The notes under the pieces: generated by a model
The model's input: only the letters and a program-made list of their open reading frames with translations
What the model was told of the DNA's origin: nothing
Databases searched by the model: none
Program-made: the position numbers and the translations under genes
In this document: one piece after another, positions 20,014 through 37,108 of the stretch
How the letters are laid out: the number at the start of each line of letters is the position of its first letter
Position numbering within the stretch: the first letter of the stretch is position 1
Source of the DNA: Escherichia coli
GTDB lineage: Bacteria > Pseudomonadota > Gammaproteobacteria > Enterobacterales > Enterobacteriaceae
Assembly (NCBI RefSeq): GCF_048403405.1
Contig: NZ_CP183129.1
Strand: one strand, 5' to 3'
Length of the DNA stretch: 64,000 bases

Positions 20014-20102
20014 TATCACATATAAAATATGTGATATCACCTAAATATTCTAAGCATATTATCAATATGCTCTCGAACGATAATAAACGAGGGCATATCC
20101 AT

Positions 20103-20979: not shown

Positions 20980-20994
20980 CTGTAATCCTCTCAA

Positions 20995-21692: not shown

Positions 21693-21698
21693 ATAATC

Positions 21699-21998
21699 AT
21701 GAGAACATATTTATCTGGCTTGACTGCCAGCGGTTATGCACACCCTAAAATTATCCCCGGCGCTATTTATCTGGATAAGAACGGTAACAGAGTAACGGTA
21801 AAAGAACTGATGTTTGACCGTGTTTATTTTATTCGTGATGGCTATTCATTTCATAGTTCGCTGAACGTGGAGATCTTTATTTGCAGATTCCGGCGGGAAA
21901 TCCCGCTTTCCAGAAATAACCATGTGTCATGTATGGATGTTGATAAAAAACTACAGGAACTGAAAAACATGATTGCCGCGTGGAGAGAGCAGAAATGA
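21699..21998 (+). CDS. Hypothetical protein (99 aa)
   Basis: ORF whose stop overlaps the primase start (ATGA coupling). Confidence 0.5.
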   Translation: MRTYLSGLTASGYAHPKIIPGAIYLDKNGNRVTVKELMFDRVYFIRDGYSFHSSLNVEIFICRFRREIPLSRNNHVSCMDVDKKLQELKNMIAAWREQK

Positions 21999-23812
21999 AA
22001 AAAGCGCCAAATTTAAAACACCAGCCGCGTGACAAAATGACGGAAGTCATCATTTTTGCGGGTAGTGATGCGTGGGCACATGCGAAGCAGTGGCAGGAAC
22101 AGGACGGGCGACTGGCAGGCGATAACGTGCCACCTGTCTGGCTTGGAGAGCAACAACTTGCCGAACTGGACAACCTGCAAATTGTACCGGACGGACGCTA
22201 TCGCGTGCGTCTCTATCAGGCGGGGTTATTGCGTCCGGGGCTTGTTAATACCATCGGGCAGAAACTGGCAGCGGCAGGTGTCAGGGATGCTGATTATTAC
22301 CCTGAAGGAATGCACAGCCAGAAACGGGAGAACTGGCGCGAATATCTGGAACGTGAGCGGGGAGAGCTGGCGGAAAAGAAAAAGGTAGTTGAACTGCCTG
22401 TAAAGAAAAAAGAGCGGGTAAAAGACGATAACGCTTCATCACTGGCGCTTAACCAGATGGGAGCAAGTCAACGCGGCGAAGTTCTCCTGGCACATTATGG
22501 CGGTGAACTGGCGATTCATGCCGACTCTGACACTGTTCACCATTACAACGGCGTTGTATGGGAGCCAGTACAGGATAAAGAATTACAGCGAGCTATGGCG
22601 CAGATTTTCATTGATGCGGAGATCAGCTATTCGCAGAACGCCATTAAATCGGCGGTCGATACCATGAAGTTAAGTTTGCCTGTAATGGGGAATACAGCCC
22701 GTAACCTGATTGGATTCAGTAACGGGGTATTTGATACCAGAACAGGTAATTTTCGGGAGCATAACAAAAACGACTGGTTGTTAATTGCCAGTGAATTACC
22801 TTTCAGCCCACCAGCAGAGGGGGAAACGCTGGCAACACATGCGCCGAATTTCTGGAAGTGGTTACGCCGTTCGGTGGCTGAGAATGACCGCAAGGCGGAT
22901 CGCGTACTGGCGGCATTATTCATGGTGCTGGCGAACCGGTACGACTGGCAGTTATTCATTGAGGTAACAGGTCCAGGGGGAAGTGGTAAAAGCGTGATGG
23001 CGGAGATTTGCACCATGCTGGCGGGTAAGGCTAATACAGTATCAGCAAGCATGAAGGCGCTGGAAGATGCAAGGGAACGTGCGTTAGTGGTTGGCTTTTC
23101 TCTGATTATCATGCCGGATATGACCCGCTACGCTGGTGATGGGGCAGGGATTAAGGCCATTACAGGCGGTGACAAGGTGGCAATTGACCCGAAACACAAA
23201 GCTCCCTACTCAACGCGTATTCCGGCAGTAGTGCTGGCGGTTAACAATAACGCCATGTCATTCAGTGACCGCAGCGGGGGGATCTCACGTCGTCGGGTGA
23301 TATTCAATTTTTCGGAAGTTGTACCGGAGAACGAACGTGATCCGATGCTGGCGGAAAAAATAGAAGGTGAGCTGGCGGTAGTGATTCGCCATCTGCTTAC
23401 ACGGTTTGCTAACCAGGACGAAGCCAGACGCCTGTTATATGAGCAGCAGAAATCTGAAGAAGCACTGGCGATAAAGCGAGAGGGGGATTCGCTGGTGGAC
23501 TTCTGCGGCTATCTCATGGCGTCGGTAATGTGTGATGGCCTGTTAGTGGGTAATGCTGAAATTGTGCCATTCAGCCCGCGCAGATATCTCTATCATGCCT
23601 ATCTGGCTTATATGAGGGCACATGGGTTTGGTAAACCTGTAACACTGACGCGCTTCGGTAAAGATATGCCGGGGGCAATGGCGGAATATGGCAGGGAGTA
23701 TATGAAACGGAAAACGAAGCACGGTTTGCGTTCAAACGTGACACTGACGGAGGAATCAGAAGACTGGATGCCATCATGTGTATCGGTCACTAATGACGAT
23801 AGCAAAAATTAA
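21995..23812 (+). CDS. Primase-helicase of the phage/plasmid P4-alpha type (PICI pri-rep)
   Basis: About 605 aa; Walker A GPGGSGKS in the C-terminal half; followed directly by the iteron array. Confidence 0.8.
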   Translation: MKKAPNLKHQPRDKMTEVIIFAGSDAWAHAKQWQEQDGRLAGDNVPPVWLGEQQLAELDNLQIVPDGRYRVRLYQAGLLRPGLVNTIGQKLAAAGVRDADYYPEGMHSQKRENWREYLERERGELAEKKKVVELPVKKKERVKDDNASSLALNQMGASQRGEVLLAHYGGELAIHADSDTVHHYNGVVWEPVQDKELQRAMAQIFIDAEISYSQNAIKSAVDTMKLSLPVMGNTARNLIGFSNGVFDTRTGNFREHNKNDWLLIASELPFSPPAEGETLATHAPNFWKWLRRSVAENDRKADRVLAALFMVLANRYDWQLFIEVTGPGGSGKSVMAEICTMLAGKANTVSASMKALEDARERALVVGFSLIIMPDMTRYAGDGAGIKAITGGDKVAIDPKHKAPYSTRIPAVVLAVNNNAMSFSDRSGGISRRRVIFNFSEVVPENERDPMLAEKIEGELAVVIRHLLTRFANQDEARRLLYEQQKSEEALAIKREGDSLVDFCGYLMASVMCDGLLVGNAEIVPFSPRRYLYHAYLAYMRAHGFGKPVTLTRFGKDMPGAMAEYGREYMKRKTKHGLRSNVTLTEESEDWMPSCVSVTNDDSKN

Positions 23813-23824
23813 ACTTATGGAATA

Positions 23825-24049
23825 ACTGTTCACCACTGTTCACCCTGTCATAAATATCTTTTATATCAGTATATTATAGGGTTAACAGTTATTTATGAAC
23901 TGTTCACCAAACTATTCACTGTTCACCTTTTTGATTGTTTATTGAGCTTCAAGGGTGAACAGTGGTGAACAGTTGGTGAATAGTTTTTGTGAAACTGTTC
24001 ACCCCTTAACCTTATGAATTAAAAGATAAAATATCAAAAGGTGAACAGG
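23825..24049. repeat. Candidate origin of replication: array of about 9 ACTGTTCACC / GGTGAACAGT iterons with AT-rich spacers
   Basis: Direct copies at 23825, 23835, 23899, 23918, 23994; inverted copies at 23954, 23964, 24040; degenerate copies at 23909 and 23975; immediately 3' of the primase gene. Confidence 0.75.
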
Positions 24050-24196
24050 TGAAGGGTTAAAACGCAAAAATTTTAATTTACTGCTGTGAGATAAAGACTA
24101 TGACAGTAAAGCACACAAAAACACGCGCTTGATTTGACCGAATACTGGTTAAAAATGACTACAAATTAGATAAATTAGATAAAATAGGAAGAAATA

Positions 24197-24457
24197 ATGC
24201 CGATTCTGACGCATGAAATAAACAATTATTTTGATCAATTCGGACTTCATGATATTGCTTCAATGCCTACCACTCAGTACCGTCAGGCCCTTGCAAATGG
24301 TGGTTTACTGTGGATTGATCATCATGATTTTATTCGTAGCACGCTATCAGATGAAATCCTTGCAACAAATCAAGAGCAGGTTAATGTTTTGATTGAGCAT
24401 TTGCAGGTTTTAAGGAAAAAAATGCCACTACCTCCTAATTGGATGAGTGAGAAATGA
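24197..24457 (+). CDS. Hypothetical protein (86 aa)
   Basis: ATG at 24197 with RBS aggaag; convergent with the two-gene operon. Confidence 0.55.
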   Translation: MPILTHEINNYFDQFGLHDIASMPTTQYRQALANGGLLWIDHHDFIRSTLSDEILATNQEQVNVLIEHLQVLRKKMPLPPNWMSEK

Positions 24458-24459
24458 AT

Positions 24460-24490
24460 TATATGGCCTGGCTCTTTGCCAGGCCATATA
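24460..24490. terminator. Bidirectional terminator: perfect 13 bp inverted repeat between convergent stop codons
   Basis: tatatggcctggc-tctttg-ccaggccatata located exactly between the stops at 24455-24457 (+) and 24492-24494 (-). Confidence 0.75.
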
Positions 24491-24491
24491 C

Positions 24492-25001
24492 TCAAAGCAT
24501 TGTTAACAAGGCGGACGCACCAGCACCAACGAGACTGGCTACCGTACTATTATTTAGTAAATCCTTAAGCAAATTTTTTGCCTGAGGATCTTGTGATTGA
24601 GAAACTTTTTCAACAAGTTCAGTTATGCTGAGATTTACAATAAGATTGTTATGCTCACCGAGTTGAACCTGTGTACCGGATATGTTACCAATGTTAAATG
24701 TATTTTGGCTAGATTGTTTTGGTTTATGTTCATTAGCAGTCAGATTCTCGACTTTTAATGTAAGCATGTGAGGGTGATTAGTACCAACATTGAGTGTACC
24801 TCCTGGTAAAAATGACATATCAATTACTTTTAATATTATTTCCCCCTTCCCTAGTTTTTGAGTGATTTCATCTCCAATATTAATATCTGGTTCTTCAGTA
24901 TAAGGGATTAGCACTTTTTTTTCAGCTGAGTTTCTTTTCCCCTTGTATTCAACTCCTGCGATTGTGAATTTTTCTGGATATGCCATGACGTTAAGATCCA
25001 T
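24492..25001 (-). CDS. Candidate system gene B: 169-aa protein with hydrophobic Gly/Ala-rich C-terminal tail
   Basis: ATG (rc of 24999-25001) with RBS gaggag 7 nt upstream; 27 bp after gene A; C-terminus STVASLVGAGASALLTML; shares a C-terminal module with gene A. Confidence 0.7.
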   Translation of the reverse strand: MDLNVMAYPEKFTIAGVEYKGKRNSAEKKVLIPYTEEPDINIGDEITQKLGKGEIILKVIDMSFLPGGTLNVGTNHPHMLTLKVENLTANEHKPKQSSQNTFNIGNISGTQVQLGEHNNLIVNLSITELVEKVSQSQDPQAKNLLKDLLNNSTVASLVGAGASALLTML

Positions 25002-25030
25002 TATGTTGCTCCTCGTGATCGCTTTTGCGT

Positions 25031-25807
25031 TTAACTAGTAGATTTGAAAGTGTATTTTGTCTGTGTGTTAAGGTTTGATATTAGAGCTTCATAGTTTTCT
25101 TTACTCAGTAAGTTTTTTGAGTAGGCCTTCTTAAGAAGGTTTTTTGAGAGAGTAATAATTTCTTTTTCACCAGTTGATGCAATTTTTGAGAAGAACTCAG
25201 AGAGCTCTTGTATATTAATATTGTTATTTGTACCAAGTTGTACGTATTGGCTATTTACAGTAGCTATGTTGAATATGTTTTGTTTTGGATGCGTTTTTTT
25301 TAGCTTTTCAATTTCAGCATGTTCTATGATTTTTTGAGAGATACTTTCAATATAACCACTAACGTCTTTTTTTTCTGGGAAGGAAAACCCATCACCTCTT
25401 AATATTTTATCTGTTTCGGCCATTTCATAGTAAAGCCTGCGAATCATCACAAGTAATAGTAATTTAGCCTCCTCGATTGACTCCTCTATTGAGAATTGAC
25501 ATTCAATTGCTAACGCGGAGGTCTGCTCTAAAACAATTTCTGAGTTATTTTCAATGTAAGGATTGATAAAACCATTCCAAAAAATTTGAACGGGAGTACC
25601 TTTAAATGCCAAACCTTGATAGCATATTTCTGTTCCATCATATGCAGTAACTTTCATGGGGGGGCCTGCATTGAAAAATCGCCATCTATGAATCAGTTTG
25701 GTTAATCTTTCGTCAATCTCCCGAACTAATTTATAAGTCCTTTTGAACAATGGGGATGGTCGCATCCCAGGAACAGCAAGAATTTCTTTTGTCACTTGAA
25801 TCTCCAT
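25031..25807 (-). CDS. Candidate system gene A: 258-aa protein, no recognisable motifs
   Basis: First gene of the two-gene minus-strand operon; Lys/Asn/Ile-rich, AT-rich coding sequence; segment KQNIFNIATVNSQYVQLGTNNNINIQELSEFF is paralogous to gene B. Confidence 0.7.
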   Translation of the reverse strand: MEIQVTKEILAVPGMRPSPLFKRTYKLVREIDERLTKLIHRWRFFNAGPPMKVTAYDGTEICYQGLAFKGTPVQIFWNGFINPYIENNSEIVLEQTSALAIECQFSIEESIEEAKLLLLVMIRRLYYEMAETDKILRGDGFSFPEKKDVSGYIESISQKIIEHAEIEKLKKTHPKQNIFNIATVNSQYVQLGTNNNINIQELSEFFSKIASTGEKEIITLSKNLLKKAYSKNLLSKENYEALISNLNTQTKYTFKSTS

Positions 25808-26054
25808 AGTTTATCAGCATTTTTGTAAATTATTTGTGTGTTAACATTCAAGACTGTTCGTAACAAAAATACCTTATTTACATCAATTTTTTGATCCATA
25901 TCTTAAATAGTGGCACTCAGACGTGAGCCGCCACTGTTGCCGTCCGATCCCCTGCGCGATGCCGGGTTGATCTGCGAGATGCCGAGAGTGTCGGGCGGCG
26001 CTCCCTCCGTGTTGGTTTCACGTCCTGAATCTTAACCAATACGAGAAAACCTTC

Positions 26055-27224
26055 ATGAAGAAATTAATCGAGCTCCGCCAGCAAAAAAACGCCCTGAAAA
26101 ACCAGATGCGATCCCTGCTGGAAAAAGCCGACAGTGAAAACCGCAGCCTGAACGATGACGAGGGCAAACAGTTTGATGAACTGCGTGCAAAAGCTGATTC
26201 CCTCGATACAGACATTTCCCGCCTCGAGTCTGTGGCTGATGAAGAACGCAGCAAGCCAGGAACGGGCATCCAGAAAGTATCATCTGATGAATTGCGTAAC
26301 TACATCGTAACCGGAGATGTGCGATCTCTGTCCACCAGCACTGACAGCGGCAGGGATGGCGGATATACCGTAATTCCTGAGCTTGATCGCGAAGTCATGC
26401 GCCAGCTACAGGATGACAGTGTTATGCGCGTGATCGCGACCGTGAAGACTGCAAAATCAAATGAGTTTCAGAAACTGGTTTCCACTGGCGGCGCAACTGT
26501 AGGACGAGGCACAGAAGGCAGCGCACGCAGTGAAACCAACACCCCGAAAATTGAACGCGTAACCATCAAGCTGAACCCGATCTACGCCTACCCGAAAACC
26601 ACGCAGGAAATCCTAGATTTTTCAGAGGTGGATATTCTGGGCTGGTTATCCTCCGAAATTGCCGACACGTTCGCCAGCACCGAAGAGGATGATTTTGTTA
26701 ATGGCAACGGTAACGGCAAGCCGAAAGGCTTCATGGCTTACACCCGTGCGGCGACCAGTGACAAAACCCGCGCTTTTGGCACCATTGAAAAAATGGTAGC
26801 GGCAAGTGGAACCGCCATTACAGCGGACGAACTGATCGACATTCTCTACAAGCTGAAAGCGAAATACCGCAAAAATGCCGTCTGGGTGATGAACTCGGGC
26901 ACGGCAGGGACACTACAGAAGCTGAAAAATGAGAACGGCGATTATATCTGGCGCGACAGCCTTAAAGAAGGTGCGCCGGATATGTTGCTTGGTCGTCCTG
27001 TTTACTGCCTGGAGTCCATGCCGGACATCGGCGCAGGAAAAGCACCGCTAGCGGTTGGCGATTTCAGTCGTGGTTATTTCATCGTTGATCATGTAACAGG
27101 GATTCGCACCCGACCGGACAACATTACTGAACCCGGATTCTACAAGGTCCACACGGATAAATATCTGGGCGGTGGTGTGGTGGATTCAAACGCCATCAAA
27201 ATTCTGGAAATGAAAGCTGGCTAG
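26055..27224 (+). CDS. Major capsid protein, HK97 fold, with N-terminal coiled-coil delta/scaffold domain
   Basis: 389 aa; coiled-coil N-terminus then conserved MCP blocks (LLGRPVYCLESMP, GDFSRGYFIVDHVTGIRTRPD, NAIKILEMKAG). Confidence 0.85.
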   Translation: MKKLIELRQQKNALKNQMRSLLEKADSENRSLNDDEGKQFDELRAKADSLDTDISRLESVADEERSKPGTGIQKVSSDELRNYIVTGDVRSLSTSTDSGRDGGYTVIPELDREVMRQLQDDSVMRVIATVKTAKSNEFQKLVSTGGATVGRGTEGSARSETNTPKIERVTIKLNPIYAYPKTTQEILDFSEVDILGWLSSEIADTFASTEEDDFVNGNGNGKPKGFMAYTRAATSDKTRAFGTIEKMVAASGTAITADELIDILYKLKAKYRKNAVWVMNSGTAGTLQKLKNENGDYIWRDSLKEGAPDMLLGRPVYCLESMPDIGAGKAPLAVGDFSRGYFIVDHVTGIRTRPDNITEPGFYKVHTDKYLGGGVVDSNAIKILEMKAG

Positions 27225-27278
27225 TCATGAGTAAGGAGGAGGCTGCGGCCTCCTTTTTCAGCTTTATGGAGTACACCG

Positions 27279-27839
27279 ATGAAAAACACCGATTTTGAAA
27301 TCCGCACATCTGAACTGACCGCCAGCAATAAAAAGCTGGTGGGGTATGCCGTTCGCTGGAACAGCCTTTCAGAAATTATCTGGGACGAATTCCGCGAACA
27401 GTTCACGCCGGGGGCTTTTGCTGACTATCTGGCGGCGGGTAATGATGTGCGCTGCCTGTATGAGCATGACTATACCCAACTGCTGGGGCGCACCAAATCC
27501 GGCACTCTGGTACTGACTGAGGATAACACCGGGTTACGTTTTGAACTGACACCGCCGGATACCCAGCTTGGAAAAGATGTGCTTACGCTGGTGGAGCGTG
27601 GCGACATTACAGGAATGAGCTTTGGTTTTCGCGCATTATGCGAGGAGTGGAGTATCGCGCAAAAACCGTATTTGCGTACCGTAACCGCCGCTGAACTCCG
27701 TGAAATCACAATAACGTCGATGCCTGCTTATCCAGAATCTGGCGTGGAGATTGCCCACCGTTCGTTGTTTGCACAGCACCCTGAATTATGCCCGACAGGA
27801 AATAATCGTCATCGCTGGTCTGAGCTGGCGGGGTTGTGA
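27279..27839 (+). CDS. Prohead maturation protease, HK97 family
   Basis: 186 aa; pattern FEIR...GYAVRWN...GAF...LYEHD...LGRT...GMSFGFR...MPAYPE typical of HK97 prohead protease. Confidence 0.8.
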   Translation: MKNTDFEIRTSELTASNKKLVGYAVRWNSLSEIIWDEFREQFTPGAFADYLAAGNDVRCLYEHDYTQLLGRTKSGTLVLTEDNTGLRFELTPPDTQLGKDVLTLVERGDITGMSFGFRALCEEWSIAQKPYLRTVTAAELREITITSMPAYPESGVEIAHRSLFAQHPELCPTGNNRHRWSELAGL

Positions 27840-27840
27840 T

Positions 27841-29055
27841 ATGTGGTGGCCTTTTAGTCGTAAAAAAAGCGAGCAGCGTAACCTGTCCATTGATGATTTT
27901 CTGGCGCTGTCCGGCGTACCGAATACCGGATCCGGAGAATATGTTTCTGCCGGGACGGCTGAATCATTGCCTGCAGTGATGAATGCGGTTTCTGTCATCG
28001 CTGAGGCGGTGGCCACGATGCCGTGTTATCTGTATCTGGTACGTAATGACAAGGGCAGGGAGGCGCGGGAATGGCTGGACAGTCACCCGGTAGATATTCT
28101 GCTGAATGAGCAGCCTAATTCGTGCCAGACACCTTACCAGTTTAAACGCACAATGATGCGTCACTGCCTGCTGAACGGTAACGCCTATGCGGTTATTGAG
28201 TGGGGGCAGGACGGGCAGCCAAAATCACTTCATCCTTATGCGCCGGGGTGTGTTGTACCGGAACGCACAGGCGCACACAAATACCGCTATACCATCACCG
28301 AACCCTATACAGGAACGGTGCGCACGTATTTACAGGAAGAAGTTCTGCATCTCCGCTATGCCTCGGATGATGGCTTTCTGGGGCGCTCCCCCGTCACGAT
28401 TTGCCGTGAGGCACTTGGGCTTGGCCTTGCTCAACAGCGCCACGGAGCCAGCATTATGAAAGATGGCATGATGGCGGCAGGGATTATCACGTCAGGCGAA
28501 TGGCTGGACGGCGTGAAAGGTAAACAGGCATTGGATGCTCTGGAACGCTACAAGGGGGCGAAAAATGCCGGAAAAACGCCAATCCTTGAAGGGGGCATGG
28601 ATTACAGGCAACTGGGAATGAGTAACCAGGATGCGGAATGGCTGGCCTCCCGTCGCTTCTCCATTGAAGACATCGCCCGCATGTTCAACGTATCGCCTAT
28701 TTTTCTGCAGGAATACAGCAACAGCACCTACAGCAATTTCAGCGAGGCAAGCCGCGCGTTTCTGACCATGACAATGCGCCCGTGGCTGGCGAACTTCGAA
28801 CAGCAAATCAAGGCCGCTTTGCTGGTGGCTTCTCCCGTACCTGGTACCCGTTATCTGGTTGAGTTTGATTCAGCCGATTTATTACGCGCCACACCCACCG
28901 AACGTTATGCCACGTATGAGAAAGGGATTAAGAACGGGATCATGAATCCGAACGAAGCCCGTGAGCGTGAGGGTATGCCGCCGCGTGAAGGTGGTGATGA
29001 GTTCAGCCAGGCATGGAAACAGACTGTGGAAATTAAAGGGAGAAAAGATGAGTGA
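27841..29055 (+). CDS. Portal protein, HK97 family
   Basis: 404 aa from MWWPFSRKK, starting 2 nt after the protease stop; the track ORF's upstream extension overlaps the protease. Confidence 0.8.
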   Translation: MWWPFSRKKSEQRNLSIDDFLALSGVPNTGSGEYVSAGTAESLPAVMNAVSVIAEAVATMPCYLYLVRNDKGREAREWLDSHPVDILLNEQPNSCQTPYQFKRTMMRHCLLNGNAYAVIEWGQDGQPKSLHPYAPGCVVPERTGAHKYRYTITEPYTGTVRTYLQEEVLHLRYASDDGFLGRSPVTICREALGLGLAQQRHGASIMKDGMMAAGIITSGEWLDGVKGKQALDALERYKGAKNAGKTPILEGGMDYRQLGMSNQDAEWLASRRFSIEDIARMFNVSPIFLQEYSNSTYSNFSEASRAFLTMTMRPWLANFEQQIKAALLVASPVPGTRYLVEFDSADLLRATPTERYATYEKGIKNGIMNPNEAREREGMPPREGGDEFSQAWKQTVEIKGRKDE

Positions 29056-29350
29056 AGCCAGAATTACACCTGATGAAGTCAGGGCACATCTTCGACTTGA
29101 TGATGATTTATCCGGTGAAGGCGAACTTCTGAAAATGTATACCGATGCGGCGCTGGAAGCCTGCCAGAAGCATATCGGGAAACGTTTTGAAGACGGGCTG
29201 GAATTTACCCCGGCAATGCGTGTTGGTTGCCTGATGTACATCGCTTTCCTGTACGAGAACCGGGAAGCGGTTTCACCAGTGGAGCACTCGGAACTGCCTA
29301 TGGCTATTTCTGCGCTCTGGTCAGTTTATCGTGACGTAGGGGTGTACTGA
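29048..29350 (+). CDS. Head-tail connector (gp6-like) protein
   Basis: 100 aa, MSEARITPDEVRAHLRLDDDLSGEGELLKMYTDAALEACQKHIGKRF; start overlaps the portal stop. Confidence 0.7.
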   Translation: MSEARITPDEVRAHLRLDDDLSGEGELLKMYTDAALEACQKHIGKRFEDGLEFTPAMRVGCLMYIAFLYENREAVSPVEHSELPMAISALWSVYRDVGVY

Positions 29351-29790
29351 TGCCGTGGCAACCATTAAGGCGATGCACTGAGCCTGGCTGTAATAAGCGC
29401 GTGAAGTCCGGCAAGTGTGAAGAGCACAGGCGGGCTGCATGGCGTGCAGAGGATGCCAGACGGGGACACCGCCGCGCGCGCGGGTATTCCCGACAGTGGG
29501 ACAAATACCGCGCCCTGTACCTGAGCAAAAACCCGTTATGCGTGCGTTGTCTGGCTAAGGGGATTTATACGCCAGCTCTTGTGGTGGATCACATCATTCC
29601 CATCAATGGCGGCGGTGATGTTCTCTTCTGGCCTGAGTGGAATCACCAGGCATTGTGCCAGACGTGCCACAACCGTAAGACGACACGGGAAGATCCAGCC
29701 ACGAAAGCAAACCGTAAAGCGGGCATGTATCACGAGCAGGAAGAACGGGCGGCACACCGTAACGACTGGATGTATGGCGATGATGACTGA
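29350..29790 (+). CDS. HNH endonuclease (cos-packaging accessory nuclease)
   Basis: 146 aa; Cys-rich HNH core CVRCLAKG...VVDHIIPINGGGD...NHQALCQTCHNRKT. Confidence 0.85.
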   Translation: MPWQPLRRCTEPGCNKRVKSGKCEEHRRAAWRAEDARRGHRRARGYSRQWDKYRALYLSKNPLCVRCLAKGIYTPALVVDHIIPINGGGDVLFWPEWNHQALCQTCHNRKTTREDPATKANRKAGMYHEQEERAAHRNDWMYGDDD

Positions 29791-29960
29791 ACAGGAGCAA
29801 ACCAGGCTGATACGTGGACTGATAAGGCAGCGTGACACATGGAAGACACAGGAGACAGAGCACAAAGCCAACAGGACAGGGCGCACAAAACTCACCACAG
29901 CGAAGCGATTAACCGACCGTGACCGCGAGGTCATGGAATGTTTTCGCAATCGCTGGTGAG

Positions 29961-30026
29961 GCCGTCAGAGGGGGTGGGGGTGGTTTTCAGGACGAAACCG
30001 TCCCTGCCGGACACCGACCGCCCCCT
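29961..30026. other. Candidate cos/packaging site between HNH and terS
   Basis: G-tract gagggggtgggggtgg and complementary C-tract ccgccccctc flanking palindrome ggacgaaaccgtcc, in the 290 bp gap upstream of terS. Confidence 0.35.
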
Positions 30027-30078
30027 CAAATTTTTGTGCACGGTAATTTTTTTGAAAATAATTGGGCGAAAAAAGAAC

Positions 30079-30435
30079 ATGGCAAGACCACCAAAAGCCC
30101 CCGCTTACCTGGATGAAATCGCGGTCAGGCAGTGGAAGGAAAAATCGCGCCAGCTTTCCGGGCGGGAAGACCTTACCCCCGCCGACTGGAGCAATCTGGA
30201 ACTGTATTGTGTTAACTACTCCATATACCGCAAAGCCGTCGAAGACCTTGCGACGCGCGGGTTCAGCATTGTTAACAGTCAGGGCAGCGAGAGCAGAAAC
30301 CCCGCACTGAGCGCAAAGGCTGACGCAGAAAGAATAATGATCAAAATGGCTTCTTTGCTGGGTTTTGACCCGGTAAGCCGTCGCAGAAATCCACCGGAAA
30401 CAGAGGAAGAGGACGAACTTGACCGCCTGGCATGA
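30079..30435 (+). CDS. Terminase small subunit (P27-family-like)
   Basis: 118 aa from MARPPKAPAYLDEIAVRQWKEK; directly upstream of and overlapping terL; acidic C-terminus. Confidence 0.75.
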   Translation: MARPPKAPAYLDEIAVRQWKEKSRQLSGREDLTPADWSNLELYCVNYSIYRKAVEDLATRGFSIVNSQGSESRNPALSAKADAERIMIKMASLLGFDPVSRRRNPPETEEEDELDRLA

Positions 30436-32080
30436 GTACGCAGAAGGCGTAAAAAACGGCAAAATTACGGCCTGTAAACGACTGAAACAGGCCGTTAAAC
30501 GGTATTTTTCTGACCTTGAAAACTCCCTTTACACGTTCGATCCGGAGGTCGTGGAGCGGTTTATTGCCTTTTCCCGGGTGTGTCCGCACGTAAAAGGCGC
30601 AATGCGCGGTAGTCCCATTGAACTGGAGCCGTGGCAGCAGTTCGCCTTTGCCTGCATCCTGGGCTTTAAGGTTAAGGCCACCGGACGGCGCAAATACACC
30701 AGCGCATTCATTGAAGTACCGCGAAAAAATGCCAAATCCACGGTCGCCGCTATCCTGGCTAACTGGTTTCTGGTTATGGAAAACGGGCAGCAGGATATTT
30801 ACACCGCCGCCGTGAGTCGTGATCAGGCGCGGATCGTGTTTGATGATGCGCGTCAGATGTGCCTTTTATCCCGACCGTTACGAAAGCGGGTAAATATTCA
30901 GGCACACAAGGTGATACACCCGAAAACTAACAGCCTGTTAAAGCCACTGGCAGCAAAAGCGGCAACCATTGAAGGTACAAATCCGAGTCTTGCCATTGTG
31001 GATGAATATCACCTGCACCCTGACAACGGGGTTTATTCCGCACTTGAGCTGGGGATGGGGGCGCGTCCGGAGGGGCTGTTATTTGCCATCACCACATCGG
31101 GGAGCAACGTTGTTTCAGCCTGTAAACAACACTATGACTATTGCTGTCAGATACTGGATGGTGAAGAGATGAACGAATCCATGTTCGTTCTGATTTACGA
31201 GCTGGATGATGAAAGCGAGGTTGACGATCCGGCCATGTGGATAAAGGCGAATCCAAATATCGATGTTTCCGTCGATCGTGAAAAACTGGCCTCAACCATC
31301 CAGAAAGCGCGGGGTATTCCGTCGCAGTGGGTGGAAATGCTCACCAAGCGATTCAATATCTGGTGTCAGGGGGCTACGCCGTGGATGGGTAACGGTGCAT
31401 GGGCGGAGTGCGCCGGAACGTTCGCGGAGGCGGATTTATACGGGCAGGAGTGCTACGCGGGACTGGACTTATCATCAACCAGCGATATTTCCAGCGTGTG
31501 CTATGCCTTTCCGGTCGGTAAAAAGATTATGCTGGTTTCCCGTCACTATCTGCCGGAATTTCAGCTACAGAACCCCGCCAATAAAAACCGCGCCATCTAT
31601 CGCCAGTGGGTAAAGGCGGGCTGGATACGCACAACACCGGGTGACTGCATTGATTATGACCGTATCCGTGATGACATCATGGCGGATGCAGAGAATTTCA
31701 ATATCAGGCTGGTGGGCTTCGATACATGGAACGCCACGCACCTGAGGACGCAGCTACAGGGGGCAGGATTTGAGGTGGAGCCGTTCCCGCAAACATACCT
31801 TCGTTTCAGTCCGGCGGCGAAATCGTTCGAAGTTTTTGTTAACCGGAAGGTGATTGTGCATCGTGGTGATCCGGTGCTGGCCTGGTCAATGAGTAATGTT
31901 GTGATGCAGAGTGACGCGAACGCCAATATCAAGCCGAACAAGAAAAAATCATCCAACAAGATAGACCCGAGCGTTGCGGCGCTGATGGCGTTTGGCACAT
32001 TCCAGGCAGAGCATGAGGAATTTGCATTTGATATGAGCGACAGCCACAAAGAGCGACTTGCGGCGTTTGATGGGGTATGA
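30419..32080 (+). CDS. Terminase large subunit
   Basis: 553 aa; ATPase N-terminal domain and nuclease C-terminal domain typical of TerL. Confidence 0.85.
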   Translation: MTAWHEYAEGVKNGKITACKRLKQAVKRYFSDLENSLYTFDPEVVERFIAFSRVCPHVKGAMRGSPIELEPWQQFAFACILGFKVKATGRRKYTSAFIEVPRKNAKSTVAAILANWFLVMENGQQDIYTAAVSRDQARIVFDDARQMCLLSRPLRKRVNIQAHKVIHPKTNSLLKPLAAKAATIEGTNPSLAIVDEYHLHPDNGVYSALELGMGARPEGLLFAITTSGSNVVSACKQHYDYCCQILDGEEMNESMFVLIYELDDESEVDDPAMWIKANPNIDVSVDREKLASTIQKARGIPSQWVEMLTKRFNIWCQGATPWMGNGAWAECAGTFAEADLYGQECYAGLDLSSTSDISSVCYAFPVGKKIMLVSRHYLPEFQLQNPANKNRAIYRQWVKAGWIRTTPGDCIDYDRIRDDIMADAENFNIRLVGFDTWNATHLRTQLQGAGFEVEPFPQTYLRFSPAAKSFEVFVNRKVIVHRGDPVLAWSMSNVVMQSDANANIKPNKKKSSNKIDPSVAALMAFGTFQAEHEEFAFDMSDSHKERLAAFDGV

Positions 32081-32367
32081 CGAGAATGACTGAAACTGAT
32101 CTACTAAAAATAATTCGCCGCATTACCGGAATCAGTCAGCAGCCTGACGAACAGGCTACACAGCCGGACAGCGTGATAGCCGAAAATTACGCGCGTGTGG
32201 TGGCTGAGGTGATGCGCCGTGACGGTATTGAGCTTAACGGCGTGGATATGCGCAACATACGAACCAGAGTCCTTGAGTTGCTGGCATACCGTCGCCGTTC
32301 TCAACAACGGAGGGAGAGCGCGAAAAATACTTACCAGTGGAAGAAGCCGGAACGACTGCGGCGGTAA
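32077..32367 (+). CDS. Hypothetical protein (96 aa), translationally coupled to terL
   Basis: ATGA overlap with the terL stop; basic C-terminus; possibly a head-completion protein. Confidence 0.5.
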   Translation: MTRMTETDLLKIIRRITGISQQPDEQATQPDSVIAENYARVVAEVMRRDGIELNGVDMRNIRTRVLELLAYRRRSQQRRESAKNTYQWKKPERLRR

Positions 32368-32408
32368 CTTGCTGATATTCCCGATAACGCAAAATTGCGT
32401 TGGCTGGC
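32366..32408 (+). repeat. Copy 1 of a 43 bp imperfect direct repeat in the right-end non-coding region, followed by palindrome TGCAAATTTGCA (32414-32425)
   Basis: taacttgctgatattcccgataacgcaaaattgcgttggctgg versus copy 2 at 32669-32711, about 35 of 43 identical by eye. Confidence 0.6.
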
Positions 32409-32668
32409 ATAGTGCAAATTTGCACGATGACCTAACCCATTGACTTTTCTTCAATCCTCAATTTTGAGGAGGCCGGAAGATAAAAAACTGTCAAAACTTG
32501 TCATGCAAAACGTTACCAGCACGGCTATTGATTTATTCGGCCCCTGCAACTGCTCCCAGAATGGTGGGGATCTGAAATCCGACCCTGAAAAAGTGCGCAA
32601 AAGTGGTACGCAAAAATTAGCGTCCAGCCACAGCCACCAGCTAGACAGAACGCCCAGAGCATTGTCAG

Positions 32669-32711
32669 TAACTGGTTGATATTCCCGACAGCCCCAAAAT
32701 GGGTTGGCTGG
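32669..32711 (+). repeat. Copy 2 of the 43 bp imperfect direct repeat, followed by palindrome TTGCAGATCTGCAA (32720-32733)
   Basis: taactggttgatattcccgacagccccaaaatgggttggctgg. Confidence 0.6.
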
Positions 32712-33058
32712 TGGGTGAGTTGCAGATCTGCAACTCGACCATGAAACTACGGAAACTACCCGTAGTTTGGGTAGTAAGAGTAACACCCAGATTCTGGGGC
32801 TTACTCGCGATACCCAAATAAAGGGTATCGGTGGACGAAATATTATTTCTCATATGTGAGCACCGAAGGCGGAATTCCGCCCTCGGTTATCTATCATGCA
32901 CAGGGAGAAGCAGGGCAAAACTCTTGCCATGGCGTCTTCCGGACCGCTCACCACACCGTTTTTATCCCCATTAAAAATGAAAAAACACATCACTGCGGAG
33001 ACATAACCACTGGCAGGTATCTATTCTATTTATTATTGTTCGGTTTCGTTCGTGCTTA

Positions 33059-33080
33059 TGTGCAGTCAGTGGTGCAGTCA
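33059..33080 (+). repeat. Candidate integrase arm-type site (right copy), 5 bp from attR
   Basis: tgtgcagtcagtggtgcagtca identical to 18008-18029. Confidence 0.55.
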
Positions 33081-33085
33081 TTTTA

Positions 33086-33165
33086 ATAAAAAAGGCGCTT
33101 CCCCATGCCGAGTAGCGCCTTTTTAATCAAGCATTTAGCTAACCTGAATTAGTTCATGCCGTATT
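33086..33165. repeat. attR: 80 bp direct repeat overlapping the last 17 nt of fis and its terminator
   Basis: Identical to 17801-17880; the fis stop codon (33149-33151) lies inside the repeat. Confidence 0.9.
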
Positions 33166-33445
33166 TTTTCAATTTTTTACGCAGCGTACCACGGTTGATG
33201 CCCATCATCAGCGCAGCACGGGTCTGGTTACCACGGGTGTATTGCATCACCATGTCCAACAGGGGCTGTTCTACTTCAGCCAGTACCAGCTCATAGAGGT
33301 CATTCACATCCTGACCGTTCAGTTGAGCAAAATAGTTCTTCAGTGCCTGTTTAACCGAGTCACGCAGGGGTTTTTGGGTTACCTGATCCTGAGAGTTAAC
33401 GGTAGAAACGGTCAGTACGTCAGAATTTACGCGTTGTTCGAACAT
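33149..33445 (-). CDS. fis: Nucleoid-associated protein / global regulator Fis
   Basis: 98 aa [39 protein letters not shown]...[17 protein letters not shown]. Confidence 0.97.
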
Positions 33446-33470
33446 AGTTCTGTCAGCTCTTTATTTCTGT

Positions 33471-34436
33471 TTACGCAAAATTTTCGAAGTATGCCTCCAA
33501 CGCCTCCAGCTGTTCGCTGGCATCCTCAATGGCGTTGAATGTGCGCCGAAACTGGTCATTTGGAGCGTGTTCCTGGAGATACCAGGAAACGTGTTTACGT
33601 GCAATTCGGTACCCTTTTGCCGGACCATAAAAGTCATGCAGTTCCCGAACGTGCGCGCAAAGCAAGCGCTTAACCTCTGCCAAAGGCAGCGGGGGCAGCA
33701 ACTCCCCAGTGTCCAGATAATGCTGGATTTCCCGAAAGATCCAGGGTCTTCCCTGAGCTGCGCGGCCTATCATCAGGGCATCCGCCCCTGTATAGTCGAG
33801 CACAGCTCTGGCTTTAAGCGGGTCAGTAATGTCGCCATTCGCGATAACCGGAATGGAAACTTTCTGCTTAACTGCCCGAATACTGTCGTACTCAGCTTCT
33901 CCATTGAACAAACAGGCGCGTGTACGGCCATGAATGGTCAGAGCCTGAATGCCACAGTCTTCAGCCAGTTGGGCAATCTCTTCGCAGTTACGGTGTTCCG
34001 GTGCCCAGCCGGTGCGAATCTTCAGGGTAACAGGAACGTCCACTGCATTGACGACCTCGGTAAGGATCGATTTAACGACATCCGGGTACTGCAAGAGGGC
34101 TGAACCTGCGAGCTTGCGATTCACTTTTTTAGCCGGGCAACCCATATTGATATCAATAATCTGGGCACCGCTTTCCACGTTAATACGTGCTGCATCTGCC
34201 ATTTCTTTCGGATCGCTACCAGCAATTTGCACGGTGCGAATACCGGGTTCATCAATGTGCACCATCCGTAAACGAGATTTGTCGCTTTCCCAAACCTGAG
34301 GGTTAGAAGACATCATCTCGGATACTGTCAATCCGGCTCCCATCTCGTAGCACAACGTCCGAAAAGGTCTGTCTGTAATGCCAGCCATGGGCGCTGCGAT
34401 CAGGCGATTTCTGAGCTGATATTGTCCGATGCGCAT
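33471..34436 (-). CDS. dusB: tRNA-dihydrouridine synthase B
   Basis: 321 aa; TIM-barrel Dus family; operon with fis. Confidence 0.93.
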
Positions 34437-34763
34437 GAGTTAAGAAATGACCATACTGTGACTGCAAGGCGGCGTATATTACGCATTTTTTGCACGAGAT
34501 GAAAGGCCAAACTTTGACCAATCCTCTGAGATGGATCAAAGAATTGCATTTAAAATGAGCGTGGCGCGATAATTACTCATAAAAATCATCATATTAGAAA
34601 ATGTTGACTAAAATTTACACTCCAAGAAATTTGAGTAAGTTCTCAATTTTTCTTTATGAATGAAAATTTTGGCACGCAAATTTGCGTAAATAATCAGCAA
34701 ATTTACGTGCCTTTTGTGAGCTTGCTCGCACTTCGGCTTGGTCACCTTACGGTGATGCGAAGG

Positions 34764-35645
34764 TTAATTCTTACGACCGGTAATGCGGCACCACTCTTCT
34801 TTTTCCACGACCGGGTCCAGTGCGAAGCTGTCGGCATAAGCTTCGCAAACGCTCTCTGCCTGGCTTGCCAGAATACCGGAAAGGCCCAGCAAACCGCCTG
34901 AAACCGGCAGGACGCTGATTAACGGTGCCAGTTCACGTAATGGGCCTGCAAGGATGTTAGCGACCACCACGTCGGCTTTCATTTCTTCTGGCTGATCTTT
35001 CGGTAAGTAGAGTTCCAGACGGTCAGAGACGCCATTACGTTCCGCGTTGTCGCGGCTGGCCTGAATCGCCTGCGGATCGATATCAATACCAATGGCTTTT
35101 GCTGCACCCAGTTTCAGCGCCGCGATAGCCAGAATGCCGGAACCACAGCCAAAGTCGATGACTGTTTTACCGGTTAAATCGAGGCTGTCGAGCCATTGCA
35201 GGCACAGAGAGGTAGTTGGATGGGTACCCGTACCAAACGCCAGCCCTGGGTCTAACATTACGTTGACGGCGTTTTCGTCCGGCACATCACGCCAGCTTGG
35301 GCAGATCCACAGTCGTTCACCAAAGCGCATCGGGTGGAAATTATCCATCCATTCGCGCTCCCAGTCTTTATCTTCCAGTTGTTCGATTTTATGCGCGAAG
35401 ACTGCGCCGAGCAGCGGATGGTTTTCCAGAATCGCCACCACGTCGTTCATATCGGTTTCAGCGTCGAACAGACCAATCACATCGGTGTCGCCCCACAGGC
35501 GCGTTTCGCCCGGCAGCGGCTCAAACACAGGCGTATCGTGGGTATCCTGAAAAGTGATAGAAACGGCACCCGCTTCCATCAGCGCATCGCTAAGATCTTC
35601 CGCGTTCGCGCCGGTGGTGTTCAGTTTCAGTTGGATCCAAGGCAT
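34764..35645 (-). CDS. prmA: Ribosomal protein L11 methyltransferase
   Basis: 293 aa; SAM-binding motif [20 protein letters not shown]. Confidence 0.93.
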
Positions 35646-35656
35646 GGCAAAACTCT

Positions 35657-37108
35657 TTATTTATCAGTAGTCAAAACGGTAGCTTGCGGGACGGATGTAC
35701 CGAAACGGTTTCCGACCAGGAAAGCCAGCAAACTTAGTAGTAACGAGGGCACGATAGGGTGGAAGCCCAGGTACTGAATATTCAGCGTCGCGAGTACGGC
35801 ATACAGCACGCCGCCAACGATCATCGCACTTAGCGCGCCTTTGGCGTTGGCGCGTTCCCAGTAAAGACCCAGCACCAGCGGCCACAGGAAAACGGCTTCC
35901 AGCCCACCGAAGGCCAGCAAATTCAGCCAGATGATCATTTCTGGCGGCTTCCAGGCGGCAAGCAGCAGCAACGCACCGAGAACTAACGTAATTACCGCCG
36001 ACATCCGCTTCAGACGCGTCTCGTTTTGCATTTGATCCGGACGGATATTCAAATAGAGATCTTTAATGATCGTAGCGGAACTTTGCAGCAACTGGGCATT
36101 GATCGTCGACATGATCGCAGCCATAGGTGCAGCCAGGAAGATCCCGGCAGCAAACGGTGGCAACACTTTTACCATTAACGTCGGGATCACCAGGTCCGGT
36201 ACGGTGAGATCGGGGATCACCGCCCGACCTAACGCTCCGGCCAGGTGCATACCGAACATCAGGATTGCGACCACAATCGTACCGATGATGATCCCCCGAT
36301 GTACGGCTTTGCTGTCTTTATAAGAGATACAGCGCACCGCAGTATGCGGCAGGCCAATCACGCCAAAACACACCAGCACCCAGAACGACGTCATAAACGC
36401 AGGCGACAGAATATCGTCAGCGCCTTGTGGCGTAACCAGTTGCGGATCGATGGTTTGCAGCGTCTCTACCGCATTGCTTAAGCCGCCAGCAGCATGGACC
36501 ACGCCAATAAGCAGCACAATGGTGCCAATCAGCATCACCAGCCCTTGCATGGTGTCGTTCAGCACGCTGGCGCGAAAGCCACCAAAGGCGGTGTAGAGCG
36601 CAATGCTGATGCCAAAAATCAGCAAACCTGTTTCATAAGGAATACCCGCCGCAGTTTCCAGCAGGCGCGCACCGCCGATAAACTGCACGGCCATCGCACC
36701 AACGAACGCAACCAGCAAACTCAAACTCGCCAGCCACACCAGCAGACGACTCTGGTAGCGGGCAAATAGCATATCGTTCAGCGTCACCGCATTGTAGCGG
36801 CGCGCAAGAATCGCGAACTTCTTGCCGAGAATACCGAGCGAAAGCCAGACCGCAGGAAGCTGAATCATCGCCAGCAATACCCAACCCAGGCCGTATTTAT
36901 AAGCAGCGCCAGGCCCGCCGATAAACGAACTGGCACTGATATAGGTCGCGGTGAGCGTCATCGCTAGCACAATACCGCCCATAGAGCGGCTACCGAGGAA
37001 ATACTCATTAAGGAAGGTGCCGGTGCTCCGTTTACGCATCGCATAAACAGAGATACCGAACACCACCACCAGATAGGCGACCAGCGGTAGAATCACTTCA
37101 AGCTGCAT
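35657..37108 (-). CDS. panF: Sodium/pantothenate symporter
   Basis: 483 aa from [13 protein letters not shown]; multi-TM SSS-family transporter. Confidence 0.92.

What the first reader, a model, noticed from the sequence alone, without database searches (positions are those of the whole stretch)
32368..33058. 700 bp structured non-coding region at the right end with a duplicated 43 bp module and perfect palindromes
No convincing ORF is present, yet the region contains two imperfect 43 bp direct repeats (32366-32408 and 32669-32711), each followed a few bp later by a perfect palindrome (TGCAAATTTGCA at 32414-32425; TTGCAGATCTGCAA at 32720-32733), plus several strong hairpins (gataccc-aaataaa-gggtatc at about 32809-32829; ccgaaggcgg-aatt-ccgccctcgg at 32863-32886). 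This looks like paired operator/protein-binding sites or one or two structured non-coding RNAs, for example a regulatory RNA of the satellite or helper-sensing element.
Basis: seen in the sequence. Interest (0 to 1): 0.55.

Follow-up and report, generated by a model that had tools for sequence, protein, structure and literature searches.

The report
Phage-copied protein-binding sites in satellite tail
The 700-bp gene-free stretch is the tail end of a phage satellite in E. coli, and its repeated modules look like binding sites for the host DNA-bending protein IHF plus a palindrome, in part copied from a regulatory site inside the roi gene of lambda-like phages, which suggests the satellite binds or senses a helper-phage regulator.

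Summary
Coordinates are right within 1-2 nt, there is no credible ORF, and folding z is about -5 on both strands.

The region is the non-coding tail of a capsid-forming PICI satellite inserted between yhdJ and fis. It lies between the last gene (orf96) and the attR arm sites. This slot is variable: absent in Buttiauxella, holding other ORFs in other genera.

The two "43-bp repeats" are two of three copies here of a ~54-nt unit found only in such tails (187 of 189 hits in 1.16 Mb). Each unit is an IHF consensus site with a T-tract, followed by a covarying palindrome. One unit type, including window 32431-32477, is a copy of a site inside lambdoid phage roi (antirepressor-family) genes. It is identical over up to 38 nt, running exactly from the IHF site to the end of the palindrome. 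HK022 roi has the same composite site.

Most relatives carry one module, so the duplication reflects two alternative tail cassettes joined in tandem, not a paired operator.

A separate 123-nt block (32712-32834) is nearly invariant, satellite-specific and unexplained.

Best reading: an array of IHF plus Roi-type protein-binding sites that acts as a decoy or sensor for helper phage. Binding and function are inferred, not shown. The satellite's cos site most likely lies elsewhere (about 29960-30030).

The parts
32077..32367 (+). orf96, the last gene of the satellite (PHROG 1561, unknown function). It always immediately precedes the tail, and its stop codon is the first TAA of unit 1.
   Evidence: The AF2 model has three helices and no PDB fold match.
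32364..32412 (+). IHF-like site TAACTTGCTGATA at 32365-32377 (1 mismatch), then palindrome AACGCAAAATTGCGTT at 32386-32401.
   Evidence: No phage counterpart found.
32412..32425 (.). Perfect 14-bp palindrome GTGCAAATTTGCAC, of the TGCA-N4-TGCA type.
   Evidence: Recurs after M-type units in other tails.
32432..32481 (+). Unit 2 (U-type, roi-like). IHF-like site TAACCCATTGACT at 32433-32445 (1 mismatch), then palindrome CCTCAATTTTGAGG at 32456-32469.
   Evidence: Matches phage roi/anti-repressor genes at 83-87% over 47 nt, on the strand antisense to roi.
32482..32667 (.). Spacer found in only about 41 E. coli genomes. Partly conserved in the diverged relative L087. Holds two terminator-like hairpins on the - strand (32647-32621 and 32612-32594).
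32668..32716 (+). Perfect IHF consensus TAACTGGTTGATA at 32669-32681, then palindrome CCCAAAATGGG at 32693-32703.
32712..32834 (+). B-core: a 123-nt block that is near-invariant, satellite-specific and of unknown function. Contains the 20-bp perfect palindrome at 32717-32736, interleaved ACTAC repeats and alternative hairpins at 32744-32775, a nested hairpin at 32773-32805, and a hairpin at 32809-32829.
   Evidence: 90-100% conserved per 10-nt bin across 29 distinct tails whose flanks are unrelated. No phage match. Non-coding.
32863..32886 (+). G+C-rich near-palindrome, possibly the intrinsic terminator of the late operon. The window copy is the exact inverse of the commoner variant CCGAGGGCGGAATTCCGCCTTCGG, which is followed by TTACTTATTG.
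33036..33080 (+). Recombination arm of attR: TTGTTCG-like repeats at 33036-42 and 33046-52, and two GTGCAGTCA repeats at 33060-68 and 33072-80. The GTGCAGTCA pair also sits next to attL at 18009-17 and 18021-29.
   Evidence: Same layout with different repeat sequences in satellites at other att sites.
33086..33161 (.). attR core: a 76-bp direct repeat of 17801-17876 (attL). Includes the fis terminator, the 3' end of fis, and an IHF consensus at 33125-33137.
   Evidence: The fis att site is described in PMC10111431.
29958..30078 (+). Probable cos site of the satellite, in the HNH-terS spacer. Outside the finding, but relevant for excluding cos from the tail.
   Evidence: Same layout as the physical ends of HK97.

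Best explanation
The region is the non-coding tail of a capsid-forming PICI satellite, lying between its last gene and attR in the element's variable 3' slot. Its repeated modules are DNA protein-binding units. Each has an IHF-type bending site (YAA-N4-TTGATW plus a T-tract) about 20 bp from a short palindrome.

One unit class is copied from a composite site inside the roi (Rha/KilAC antirepressor-family) gene of lambdoid phages. By recollection of the literature, Roi binds its own gene there, next to an IHF site.

I infer that the tail recruits host IHF together with Roi-type proteins made by a helper or invading lambdoid phage. It would act either as a decoy that titrates the regulator or as a sensor or architectural platform next to attR/attP.

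They belong to two alternative tail cassettes that recombination has placed in tandem.

Shown: the anatomy, distribution, homology to roi, the conservation pattern, and the mosaic origin. Inferred: actual binding of IHF and Roi, and the biological effect. The 123-nt B-core is part of the tail but is not explained by this model.
For: Context: int, alpA-like HTH, primase, capsid, protease, portal, HNH, terS, terL and orf96 lie between yhdJ and fis, with a 76-bp att repeat.

The slot is variable. Buttiauxella has orf96 followed directly by the arm sites, and other genera have ORFs there.

Units occur only in tails: 187 of 189 HMM hits in 1.16 Mb. There are 71 distinct units in 56 distinct tails.

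IHF consensus: 70 of 71 units match within one mismatch and 40 match perfectly. Tails hold 84 perfect matches on + against 3 on - and 0.9 expected. The consensus positions are the most conserved columns of the units.

Palindrome: all 5 arm pairs covary, 97.8% of cells are paired against 31-57% for slid controls, and 0 of 500 shuffles reach the observed score.

Homology to roi: 47/53 nt identity to an Stx-prophage roi. 99 phage records hit, all roi or anti-repressor genes. The window's own unit also hits roi. The same palindrome variants occur in roi alleles. Identity reaches 100% over 38 nt, bounded by the start of the IHF site and the end of the palindrome.

Identity profile of units against their best roi allele: 1.0 at YAA, 0.31-0.54 at the four N positions, high through the palindrome, then collapsing.

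Palindrome arms are perfect in 31 of 37 satellite units but only 10 of 19 phage alleles, so symmetry is kept without any coding constraint.

HK022 roi carries palindrome, 11 nt, then a perfect IHF consensus.

Mosaic origin.
Against: No binding data exist.

The statement that Roi binds inside its own gene beside an IHF site is my recollection of Clerget and Boccard 1996. That paper could not be read here.

Genomes with this island usually hold no closely matching roi allele: median one place per genome.

All units are co-oriented with the operon and antisense to roi, and the first is contiguous with the orf96 transcript, which also suits an RNA model. G.T outnumbers A.C at an outer 'helix', though that may be a by-product of the conserved T-tract.

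The tail is dispensable in other genera.

The B-core is not explained.
Confidence: 0.5

Rival explanations
1. RNA-level function. The tail is the 3' untranslated end of the late operon. The units fold as hairpins that stabilise or terminate the mRNA, or act as trans antisense RNAs that pair with roi mRNA of lambdoid phages. The B-core would then be a processed or independently transcribed small RNA.
For: Unit 1 starts at the orf96 stop codon, with no + strand terminator before it. All units are co-oriented with the operon and antisense to roi. Fold z is about -5. At paired positions G.T = 71 against A.C = 7. The B-core's few variants create G.U on the + strand. A G+C hairpin with a U-rich tail follows the B cassette in most relatives. 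A satellite sRNA has a precedent in PLE (bioRxiv 2022.04.08.487710).
Against: No Rfam match. Identity to roi is site-shaped: it is low at the N positions of the IHF consensus and ends at the palindrome, rather than being contiguous. The inner 'stem' exists in the phage coding DNA as well. The G.T excess sits in columns that are a conserved T-tract and GG. The + strand is more stable than the - strand in only 38 units against 20. No canonical promoter is present, and the sigma-54-like strings are weak and were defined post hoc.
Confidence: 0.2
2. No dedicated function. The tail is recombinational debris or stuffer DNA, made of fragments of phage roi genes and other sequences that were captured, duplicated and shuffled in the variable slot. 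It might be tolerated because cos packaging needs a minimum genome length.
For: The tail is strongly mosaic, with blocks in different orders and copy numbers. It is absent in Buttiauxella. Only 41 of 1170 matching genomes share the whole arrangement. The tail sits where satellites carry accessory cargo.
Against: Units keep the IHF consensus and perfect palindromes without any coding constraint, and are more symmetric than the phage originals. The covariation is strong. The B-core is near-invariant across unrelated flanks. Units occur nowhere else in 1.16 Mb.
Confidence: 0.15
3. Recombination architecture. The IHF sites are an extended arm of attP/attR that helps Int and AlpA assemble the intasome, with no role for any phage protein.
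For: The tail abuts the arm-type repeats and the att core, which itself holds an IHF consensus. IHF sites in att arms are classical for lambda-type recombination (established knowledge).
Against: Units lie 350-720 bp from the core. Their number varies from 1 to 5. They are shared by satellites with different integrases and att sites. A satellite at the same fis site lacks them.
Confidence: 0.1
4. Packaging site (cos or pac) of the satellite.
For: Palindromes next to an IHF site recall lambda cosN/cosB-I1. EcCICFT073 carries cos sites of its own (PMC6092414).
Against: The HNH-terS spacer has the HK97-type cos layout. Satellites L004 and L005 have the identical TerS protein (WP_000113645.1), but only L005 has the B-core. 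Tails are shared by satellites with unrelated TerS types. There is no lambda-like cosN.
Confidence: 0.03

Closest known systems
Intragenic Roi/IHF site of phage HK022 roi and its Stx-phage and HK629 homologues
   Same: The same composite of a 5+N+5 palindrome about 11 nt from a WATCAANNNNTTR IHF site with an A/T tract. U-type satellite units are up to 100% identical to phage alleles over 38 nt and show the same palindrome variants.
   Different: In phages the site is single and lies inside coding sequence. In the satellite it is non-coding, repeated 1-5 times, more perfectly symmetric, and in the opposite orientation relative to local transcription. The M-type units have no phage match. Roi binding at this exact site is recalled from the literature, not verified here.
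P4 satellite late promoter PLL with binding sites for helper P2 Cox, and satellites that carry helper cos sites (P4, SaPIbov5, EcCICFT073)
   Same: A satellite carrying cis elements recognised by a helper-phage protein, so that it can respond to or exploit the helper (own knowledge for the P4-Cox case; cos carriage).
   Different: Here the mimicked element is a regulatory site from a nin-region antirepressor-family gene. It is arrayed in several allelic versions and is not next to any satellite promoter or packaging gene.
Titration or decoy site arrays (E. coli datA for DnaA; P1 incA and plasmid iterons)
   Same: Clusters of repeated binding sites, in some cases with an IHF site, that sequester a regulator (own knowledge).
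   Different: Those arrays titrate a protein of the same replicon. Here the presumed ligand is encoded by another element, and the sites vary in sequence between copies.
REP/BIME-type extragenic palindromes and 3'-UTR stabiliser hairpins
   Same: Tandem imperfect palindromes just after the last gene of an operon. Some BIMEs include an IHF site (own knowledge).
   Different: The units are confined to satellite tails, all share one orientation, have no REP consensus, and derive from a phage gene.

Membership tests
Capsid-forming PICI (cf-PICI) | int, alpA, primase/replication genes, then capsid-protease-portal-connector followed by hnh-terS-terL, flanked by att repeats | tested here: met
   RefSeq annotation of the identical island. 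PHROG hits for HNH, TerS and the AlpA-like excisionase. 76-bp att repeat. Gene order matches the description in bioRxiv 2022.09.08.507074.
IHF binding site | Match to WATCAANNNNTTR with a flanking A/T tract | tested here: met
   Perfect at 32669-32681; one mismatch at 32365-32377 and 32433-45. 70 of 71 units match within one mismatch, and the consensus positions are the most conserved columns.
IHF binding site | Physical binding and bending by IHF | not testable with these tools
   Needs EMSA, footprinting or ChIP.
Roi-type operator (intragenic roi site) | Sequence homology to the palindrome + IHF segment of roi genes | tested here: met
   Met for U-type units. Window 32431-32477 is 83-87% identical to roi. 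Other units reach 100% over 38 nt.
   No phage match at E<=1 and no match among 20 roi alleles. The shared architecture is the only link.
Roi-type operator (intragenic roi site) | Binding by Roi protein, stabilised by IHF | not testable with these tools
   The source paper (PMID 8763934) is not held, so the claim rests on recollection.
HK97-type cos site | Located just upstream of terS and downstream of the HNH gene, with a G-run, GACCGCC and a T-rich layout | tested here: not met
   The tail lies downstream of terL. A region with this layout is at 29958-30078.
Described RNA family (Rfam 15) | Covariance-model match | tested here: not met
   No hit in the region at E<=1, and none in six related tails at E<=0.1.
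Structured RNA hairpin repeat | Covariation that requires RNA-specific pairs (G.U) on one strand | tested here: inconclusive
   The inner helix is almost purely Watson-Crick, so it is equally a DNA palindrome. The G.T excess of 71 against 7 is confined to T-tract/GG columns. MFE favours the + strand in 38 units against 20.
Type III toxin-antitoxin RNA repeats | Near-identical tandem repeats next to an endoribonuclease toxin gene | tested here: not met
   Units are about 75-80% alike and not always tandem. No toxin family was found for orf96 or the local ORFs in PHROGs, NCBIfam or Pfam. PADLOC was not run.
Arm-type integrase sites of attP | The same short repeat on both sides of the att core, inside the element | tested here: met
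   GTGCAGTCA occurs twice at 18009-18029 and twice at 33060-33080.

The most novel reading that the evidence does not exclude
E. coli phage satellites carry, in their 3' tails, multi-allelic arrays of decoy operators copied from the autoregulatory Roi/IHF site of lambdoid phages. This would let one satellite bind the Roi-type regulators of many different helper or competitor phages, either to sense them or to derail their lytic programme. The near-invariant 123-nt B-core would be a further cis element or small RNA of the same helper-interaction module, not yet described.
Probability: 0.3. Interest if true: 0.8.

Novelty: new variant of a known kind. Interest (0 to 1): 0.6.

Why it matters
How Gram-negative PICIs detect and interfere with their helper phages is largely unknown. 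The papers read here say only that helper phage activates alpA expression.

A satellite-borne array of sites copied from a helper regulatory gene gives a concrete, testable link between lambdoid Roi/antirepressor proteins, host IHF and satellite biology.

It would also add a cis-element form of molecular mimicry to the known cases of satellites borrowing helper cos sites.

In practical terms, these tails are present in roughly a fifth of complete E. coli genomes and are currently unannotated.

Tried and rejected
- **cos or pac site.** Rejected. An HK97-like cos layout lies upstream of terS, and B-core presence does not track TerS identity.
- **Lambda-like cosN.** Absent.
- **Hidden protein gene.** No family hits. 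The ORF over the B-core is not conserved as an ORF, and the synonymous/non-synonymous test was uninformative because two frames looked alike.
- **Known RNA family.** None.
- **orf96 as a recognisable binder.** 975 homologues are all 'hypothetical'. No Pfam, NCBIfam or PDB sequence hit, and no fold match for a pLDDT-74 model.
- **Cargo gene after the B-core in L089 and L070.** These turned out to be the interrupted terL and capsid genes of a lambda-like prophage, i.e. helper-embedded PICIs.
- **RNA-hairpin reading of the units.** I favoured this at first because of the covariation and the G.T excess. I downgraded it once the same palindromes and an IHF consensus were found inside phage roi.
- **Sigma-54 promoter strings** (TGGY-N7-KTGCA at 32401-16 and 32709-24). 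They are strand-specific in tails (47 against 1) but were defined post hoc, have a weak -24 half, and are missing from 11 of 29 B-core contexts. Left as an idea.
- **Co-residence of the island with a matching roi allele.** Not seen.
- **Literature.** Searches for the exact sequences, for sRNAs in these islands, and for any Roi-PICI link found nothing.

Full report
**Observation**

The direct repeat is 32364-32407 and 32668-32711 (44 nt, 82% identity). The palindromes are GTGCAAATTTGCAC at 32412-32425 and GAGTTGCAGATCTGCAACTC at 32717-32736. The hairpins are at 32809-32829 and 32863-32886.

The 695-nt stretch folds far better than shuffles on both strands, with z of -5.0 and -5.4. No gene is annotated here in any of the 41 complete E. 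coli genomes that carry the whole region. None of the local ORFs matches PHROGs or NCBIfam.

**Context**

The window is E. coli chromosome. A 15-kb capsid-forming PICI satellite is inserted between yhdJ and fis. Its genes, in order, are int, an AlpA-type regulator, an Icd-like gene, primase, capsid, protease, portal, connector, HNH, TerS, TerL and a final 96-codon gene, orf96.

The att core is a 76-bp direct repeat, 17801-17876 and 33086-33161. It includes the fis terminator, which agrees with the fis att site described in PMC10111431.

Inside the element, next to both cores, are two GTGCAGTCA repeats. On the right side there are also TTGTTCG-like repeats. Satellites at other att sites have the same layout with different repeat sequences. 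So 33036-33080 is the recombination arm.

The finding therefore occupies the slot between the last gene and the attR arm.

**The slot is variable**

E. coli satellites of two different packaging types, at four att sites, all have orf96 followed by 700-1000 bp of unannotated DNA.

Other genera have satellites at the same fis site. In Buttiauxella, orf96 is followed by the arm sites within about 30 bp. Pluralibacter and Edaphovirga have other ORFs in that position.

orf96 itself is satellite-specific and of unknown function.

**Not the packaging site**

HK97's physical ends lie 49 nt upstream of terS and downstream of the HNH gene. The sequence runs from a G-run to GACCGCCGCCAAA at the right end, then GTTTGAATTT...ATTTTTTTAG at the left end.

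The satellite's HNH-terS spacer (29958-30078) has the same layout.

Two O157 satellites with the identical TerS protein differ in whether they carry the conserved B-core. Tails are also shared by satellites with unrelated TerS types.

**The tail is a mosaic**

Only 41 of 1170 matching genomes have the whole arrangement. Most relatives join query positions 1-40 directly to about 301-617, which means one module and not two. Others have only the first 110 nt.

Pairwise comparisons show short shared blocks in different orders and copy numbers.

So the two 43-bp modules mark two alternative cassettes placed in tandem: an A-type start at 32364-32481 and a B-type cassette at 32668-32984. A diverged relative, L087 (about 75% identity), keeps the same arrangement.

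**The repeat unit**

An HMM built from eight copies finds a ~54-nt unit. There are 71 distinct versions in 56 distinct tails, with 1-5 per tail, all in the orientation of the operon.

The 64-kb window has exactly three: 32364-32412, 32432-32481 and 32668-32716.

The units share conserved flanks and a central 5+3+5 palindrome that takes at least nine different self-complementary sequences. On 37 units:

- All five arm pairs change on both sides.
- 97.8% of cells are paired, against 31-57% for slid controls.
- No shuffle out of 500 reaches the observed score.

I first read this as an RNA hairpin. A weaker outer helix is rich in G.T (71 against 7 A.C), which seemed to point to the + strand.

**The turn: the units come from phage roi**

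A BLAST search of U-type units against E. coli and phage genomes hit the inside of roi genes in lambdoid phages. These genes are annotated Roi, anti-repressor or KilAC, and carry Pfam Phage_pRha plus ANT domains.

- The match is 47/53 nt to an Stx prophage.
- There are 99 phage records, all in the same relative orientation.
- The window's own middle unit matches roi at 83-87%.

Eighty roi loci gave 20 alleles of codons 37-62. Their palindromes are the same set seen in the satellite units: CCACCATTGGGGG, CCTCAATTTGAGG, CCTGCAATGCAGG and CCTCAAATTGAGG.

Thirty-two of 71 units match a specific allele, at up to 100% over 38 nt. The identical stretch runs exactly from the conserved 5' flank to the end of the palindrome.

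That 5' flank is the reverse complement of the IHF consensus WATCAANNNNTTR, followed by a T-tract:

- 40 of 71 units match perfectly and 70 of 71 within one mismatch.
- Tails hold 84 perfect matches on the + strand, against 3 on the - strand and 0.9 expected.
- The consensus positions are the most informative columns of the units.
- In the window, the match is perfect at 32669-32681 and has one mismatch at 32365-32377 and at 32433-32445.

The profile of identity between units and their best roi allele follows the shape of a binding site:

| Segment | Identity |
|---|---|
| YAA | 1.0 |
| Four N positions | 0.31-0.54 |
| TTGAT, T-tract and palindrome | high |
| Just past the palindrome | collapses to about 0-0.4 |

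Satellite palindromes are more often perfect (31 of 37) than the phage ones, which are constrained by coding (10 of 19).

HK022's own roi carries CCTGCATTGCAG, then 11 nt, then AATCAATGATTTA.

My recollection of Clerget and Boccard (1996) is that Roi binds a site within its own gene, closely linked to an IHF site, and that IHF stabilises the binding. Their title is confirmed through reference 59 of PMC3430580. I could not read the paper, so this point is marked as recollection.

**Interpretation**

The units are best read as DNA sites for IHF plus a dimeric Roi-type protein. The covariation reflects palindromic operator variants. The G.T excess of the outer 'helix' falls in the T-tract and GG columns and is probably incidental.

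I infer that the satellite tail recruits IHF and the Roi-type regulators of helper or invading lambdoid phages, either as a decoy or as a sensor/architectural platform beside attR/attP. Function is not shown.

Weaknesses of this reading:

- Genomes with the island usually lack a closely matching roi allele.
- An antisense or 3'-UTR RNA role remains possible. The units are contiguous with the orf96 transcript and antisense to roi.

**The B-core**

Window 32712-32834 is 90-100% conserved per 10-nt bin across 29 tails whose flanks are otherwise unrelated. It is sometimes duplicated and sometimes absent, and it has no phage match even at E<=5.

A 40-codon ORF overlaps it. Its start varies, its stop is lost in 11 of 29 relatives, and L087 has a 1-nt deletion that removes the conserved ATG while the nucleotides stay conserved. 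It is therefore non-coding.

The few variants fall in loops or create G.U pairs on the + strand.

It contains the 20-bp palindrome, with TGCA-N4-TGCA half-sites reminiscent of roi-type CTGCA-T-TGCAG, and interleaved ACTAC repeats that can form two mutually exclusive hairpins. In most relatives a G+C hairpin with a U-rich tail follows it. The window's copy of that hairpin is the exact inverse of the commoner variant.

Whether the B-core is another protein-binding platform or a small RNA is open.

**Novelty**

No Rfam family, no paper containing these sequences, and no paper linking Roi to PICIs was found.

The closest known principles are satellites that carry helper cis elements (cos sites; by recollection, P2 Cox sites at P4 PLL) and titration arrays such as datA. 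I therefore file this as a new variant of a known kind, with moderate-to-good interest and a clear experimental path.

Noticed in passing
window 29958-30078: The HNH-terS spacer has a G-rich inverted repeat (GAGGGGGTGGGGG...CCGCCCCCTC) and a T-rich stretch, laid out like the physical ends of HK97. This is the probable cos site of the satellite. I did not find it described in the cf-PICI papers read.
   Followed up: partly
phage record OR845787.1 (hit H82): A 1621-bp record named 'Escherichia phage ECO95 1-6-1', from E. coli O157:H7 ATCC 43895, matches the satellite's putative cos spacer at 82%. It may be a fragment of a cf-PICI deposited as phage.
   Followed up: no
roi loci L130-L209 and L210 (HK022 about 3656-4381): The palindrome inside roi lies in the codons of Roi's own N-terminal Rha-type domain. 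It stays palindromic across alleles that encode different peptides (PQIEV, PALQV, PPMVV), so the site and the protein that presumably reads it change within the same DNA.
   Followed up: partly
L003 2993-3105 (E. coli E143, next to dinD): Two units plus the TGCAAATTTGCA palindrome lie at the edge of a P22-like prophage region with no orf96 upstream. This is the only place where units were found outside a recognisable satellite tail.
   Followed up: no
L089 (and L095, L113, L116, L122); L070: These are helper-embedded PICIs. The tail is followed directly by the 3' part of a lambda-like terL (then W and portal) or, in L070, by the major capsid gene. L070 has four GTATTGCAGCAT-type arm repeats and keeps only the first ~45 nt of the B-core (the palindrome part).
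   Followed up: partly
window 32863-32886 vs L002 3195-3220: The 26-bp G+C near-palindrome is 100% identical to the relatives' copy only when read as its reverse complement. The single mismatch is A.C here and G.T in most relatives, as if the palindrome had flipped.
   Followed up: partly
window 32401-32416 and 32709-32724: Strings with sigma-54 -24/-12 spacing (TGGCTGGCATAGTGCA and TGGTGGGTGAGTTGCA) sit at unit-palindrome junctions. In tails there are 47 on the + strand and 1 on the - strand, across four or five junction types. The -24 half is weak and no activator is known.
   Followed up: partly
window 21176-21379: The satellite has an Icd-like gene (PHROG 'transcriptional repressor'). In P1, icd follows the C4 antisense RNA, and PMC10111431 reports P4 CI/seqA homologues in PICI Bro zones. 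No Rfam C4 hit was seen in 20000-36000.
   Followed up: no
window 17840-17852 and 33125-33137: A perfect IHF consensus (TAAATGCTTGATT, - strand) lies inside the 76-bp att core next to the fis terminator.
   Followed up: no
window about 1000-5500: [quoted passage not shown] Unrelated to the finding.
   Followed up: no
L006 7669-7696 and L087 1752-1840: CRISPR-DR4 repeats (Rfam RF01317) lie near clpA, beyond the satellite at the clpS site. This is chromosomal context, not part of the tail.
   Followed up: no
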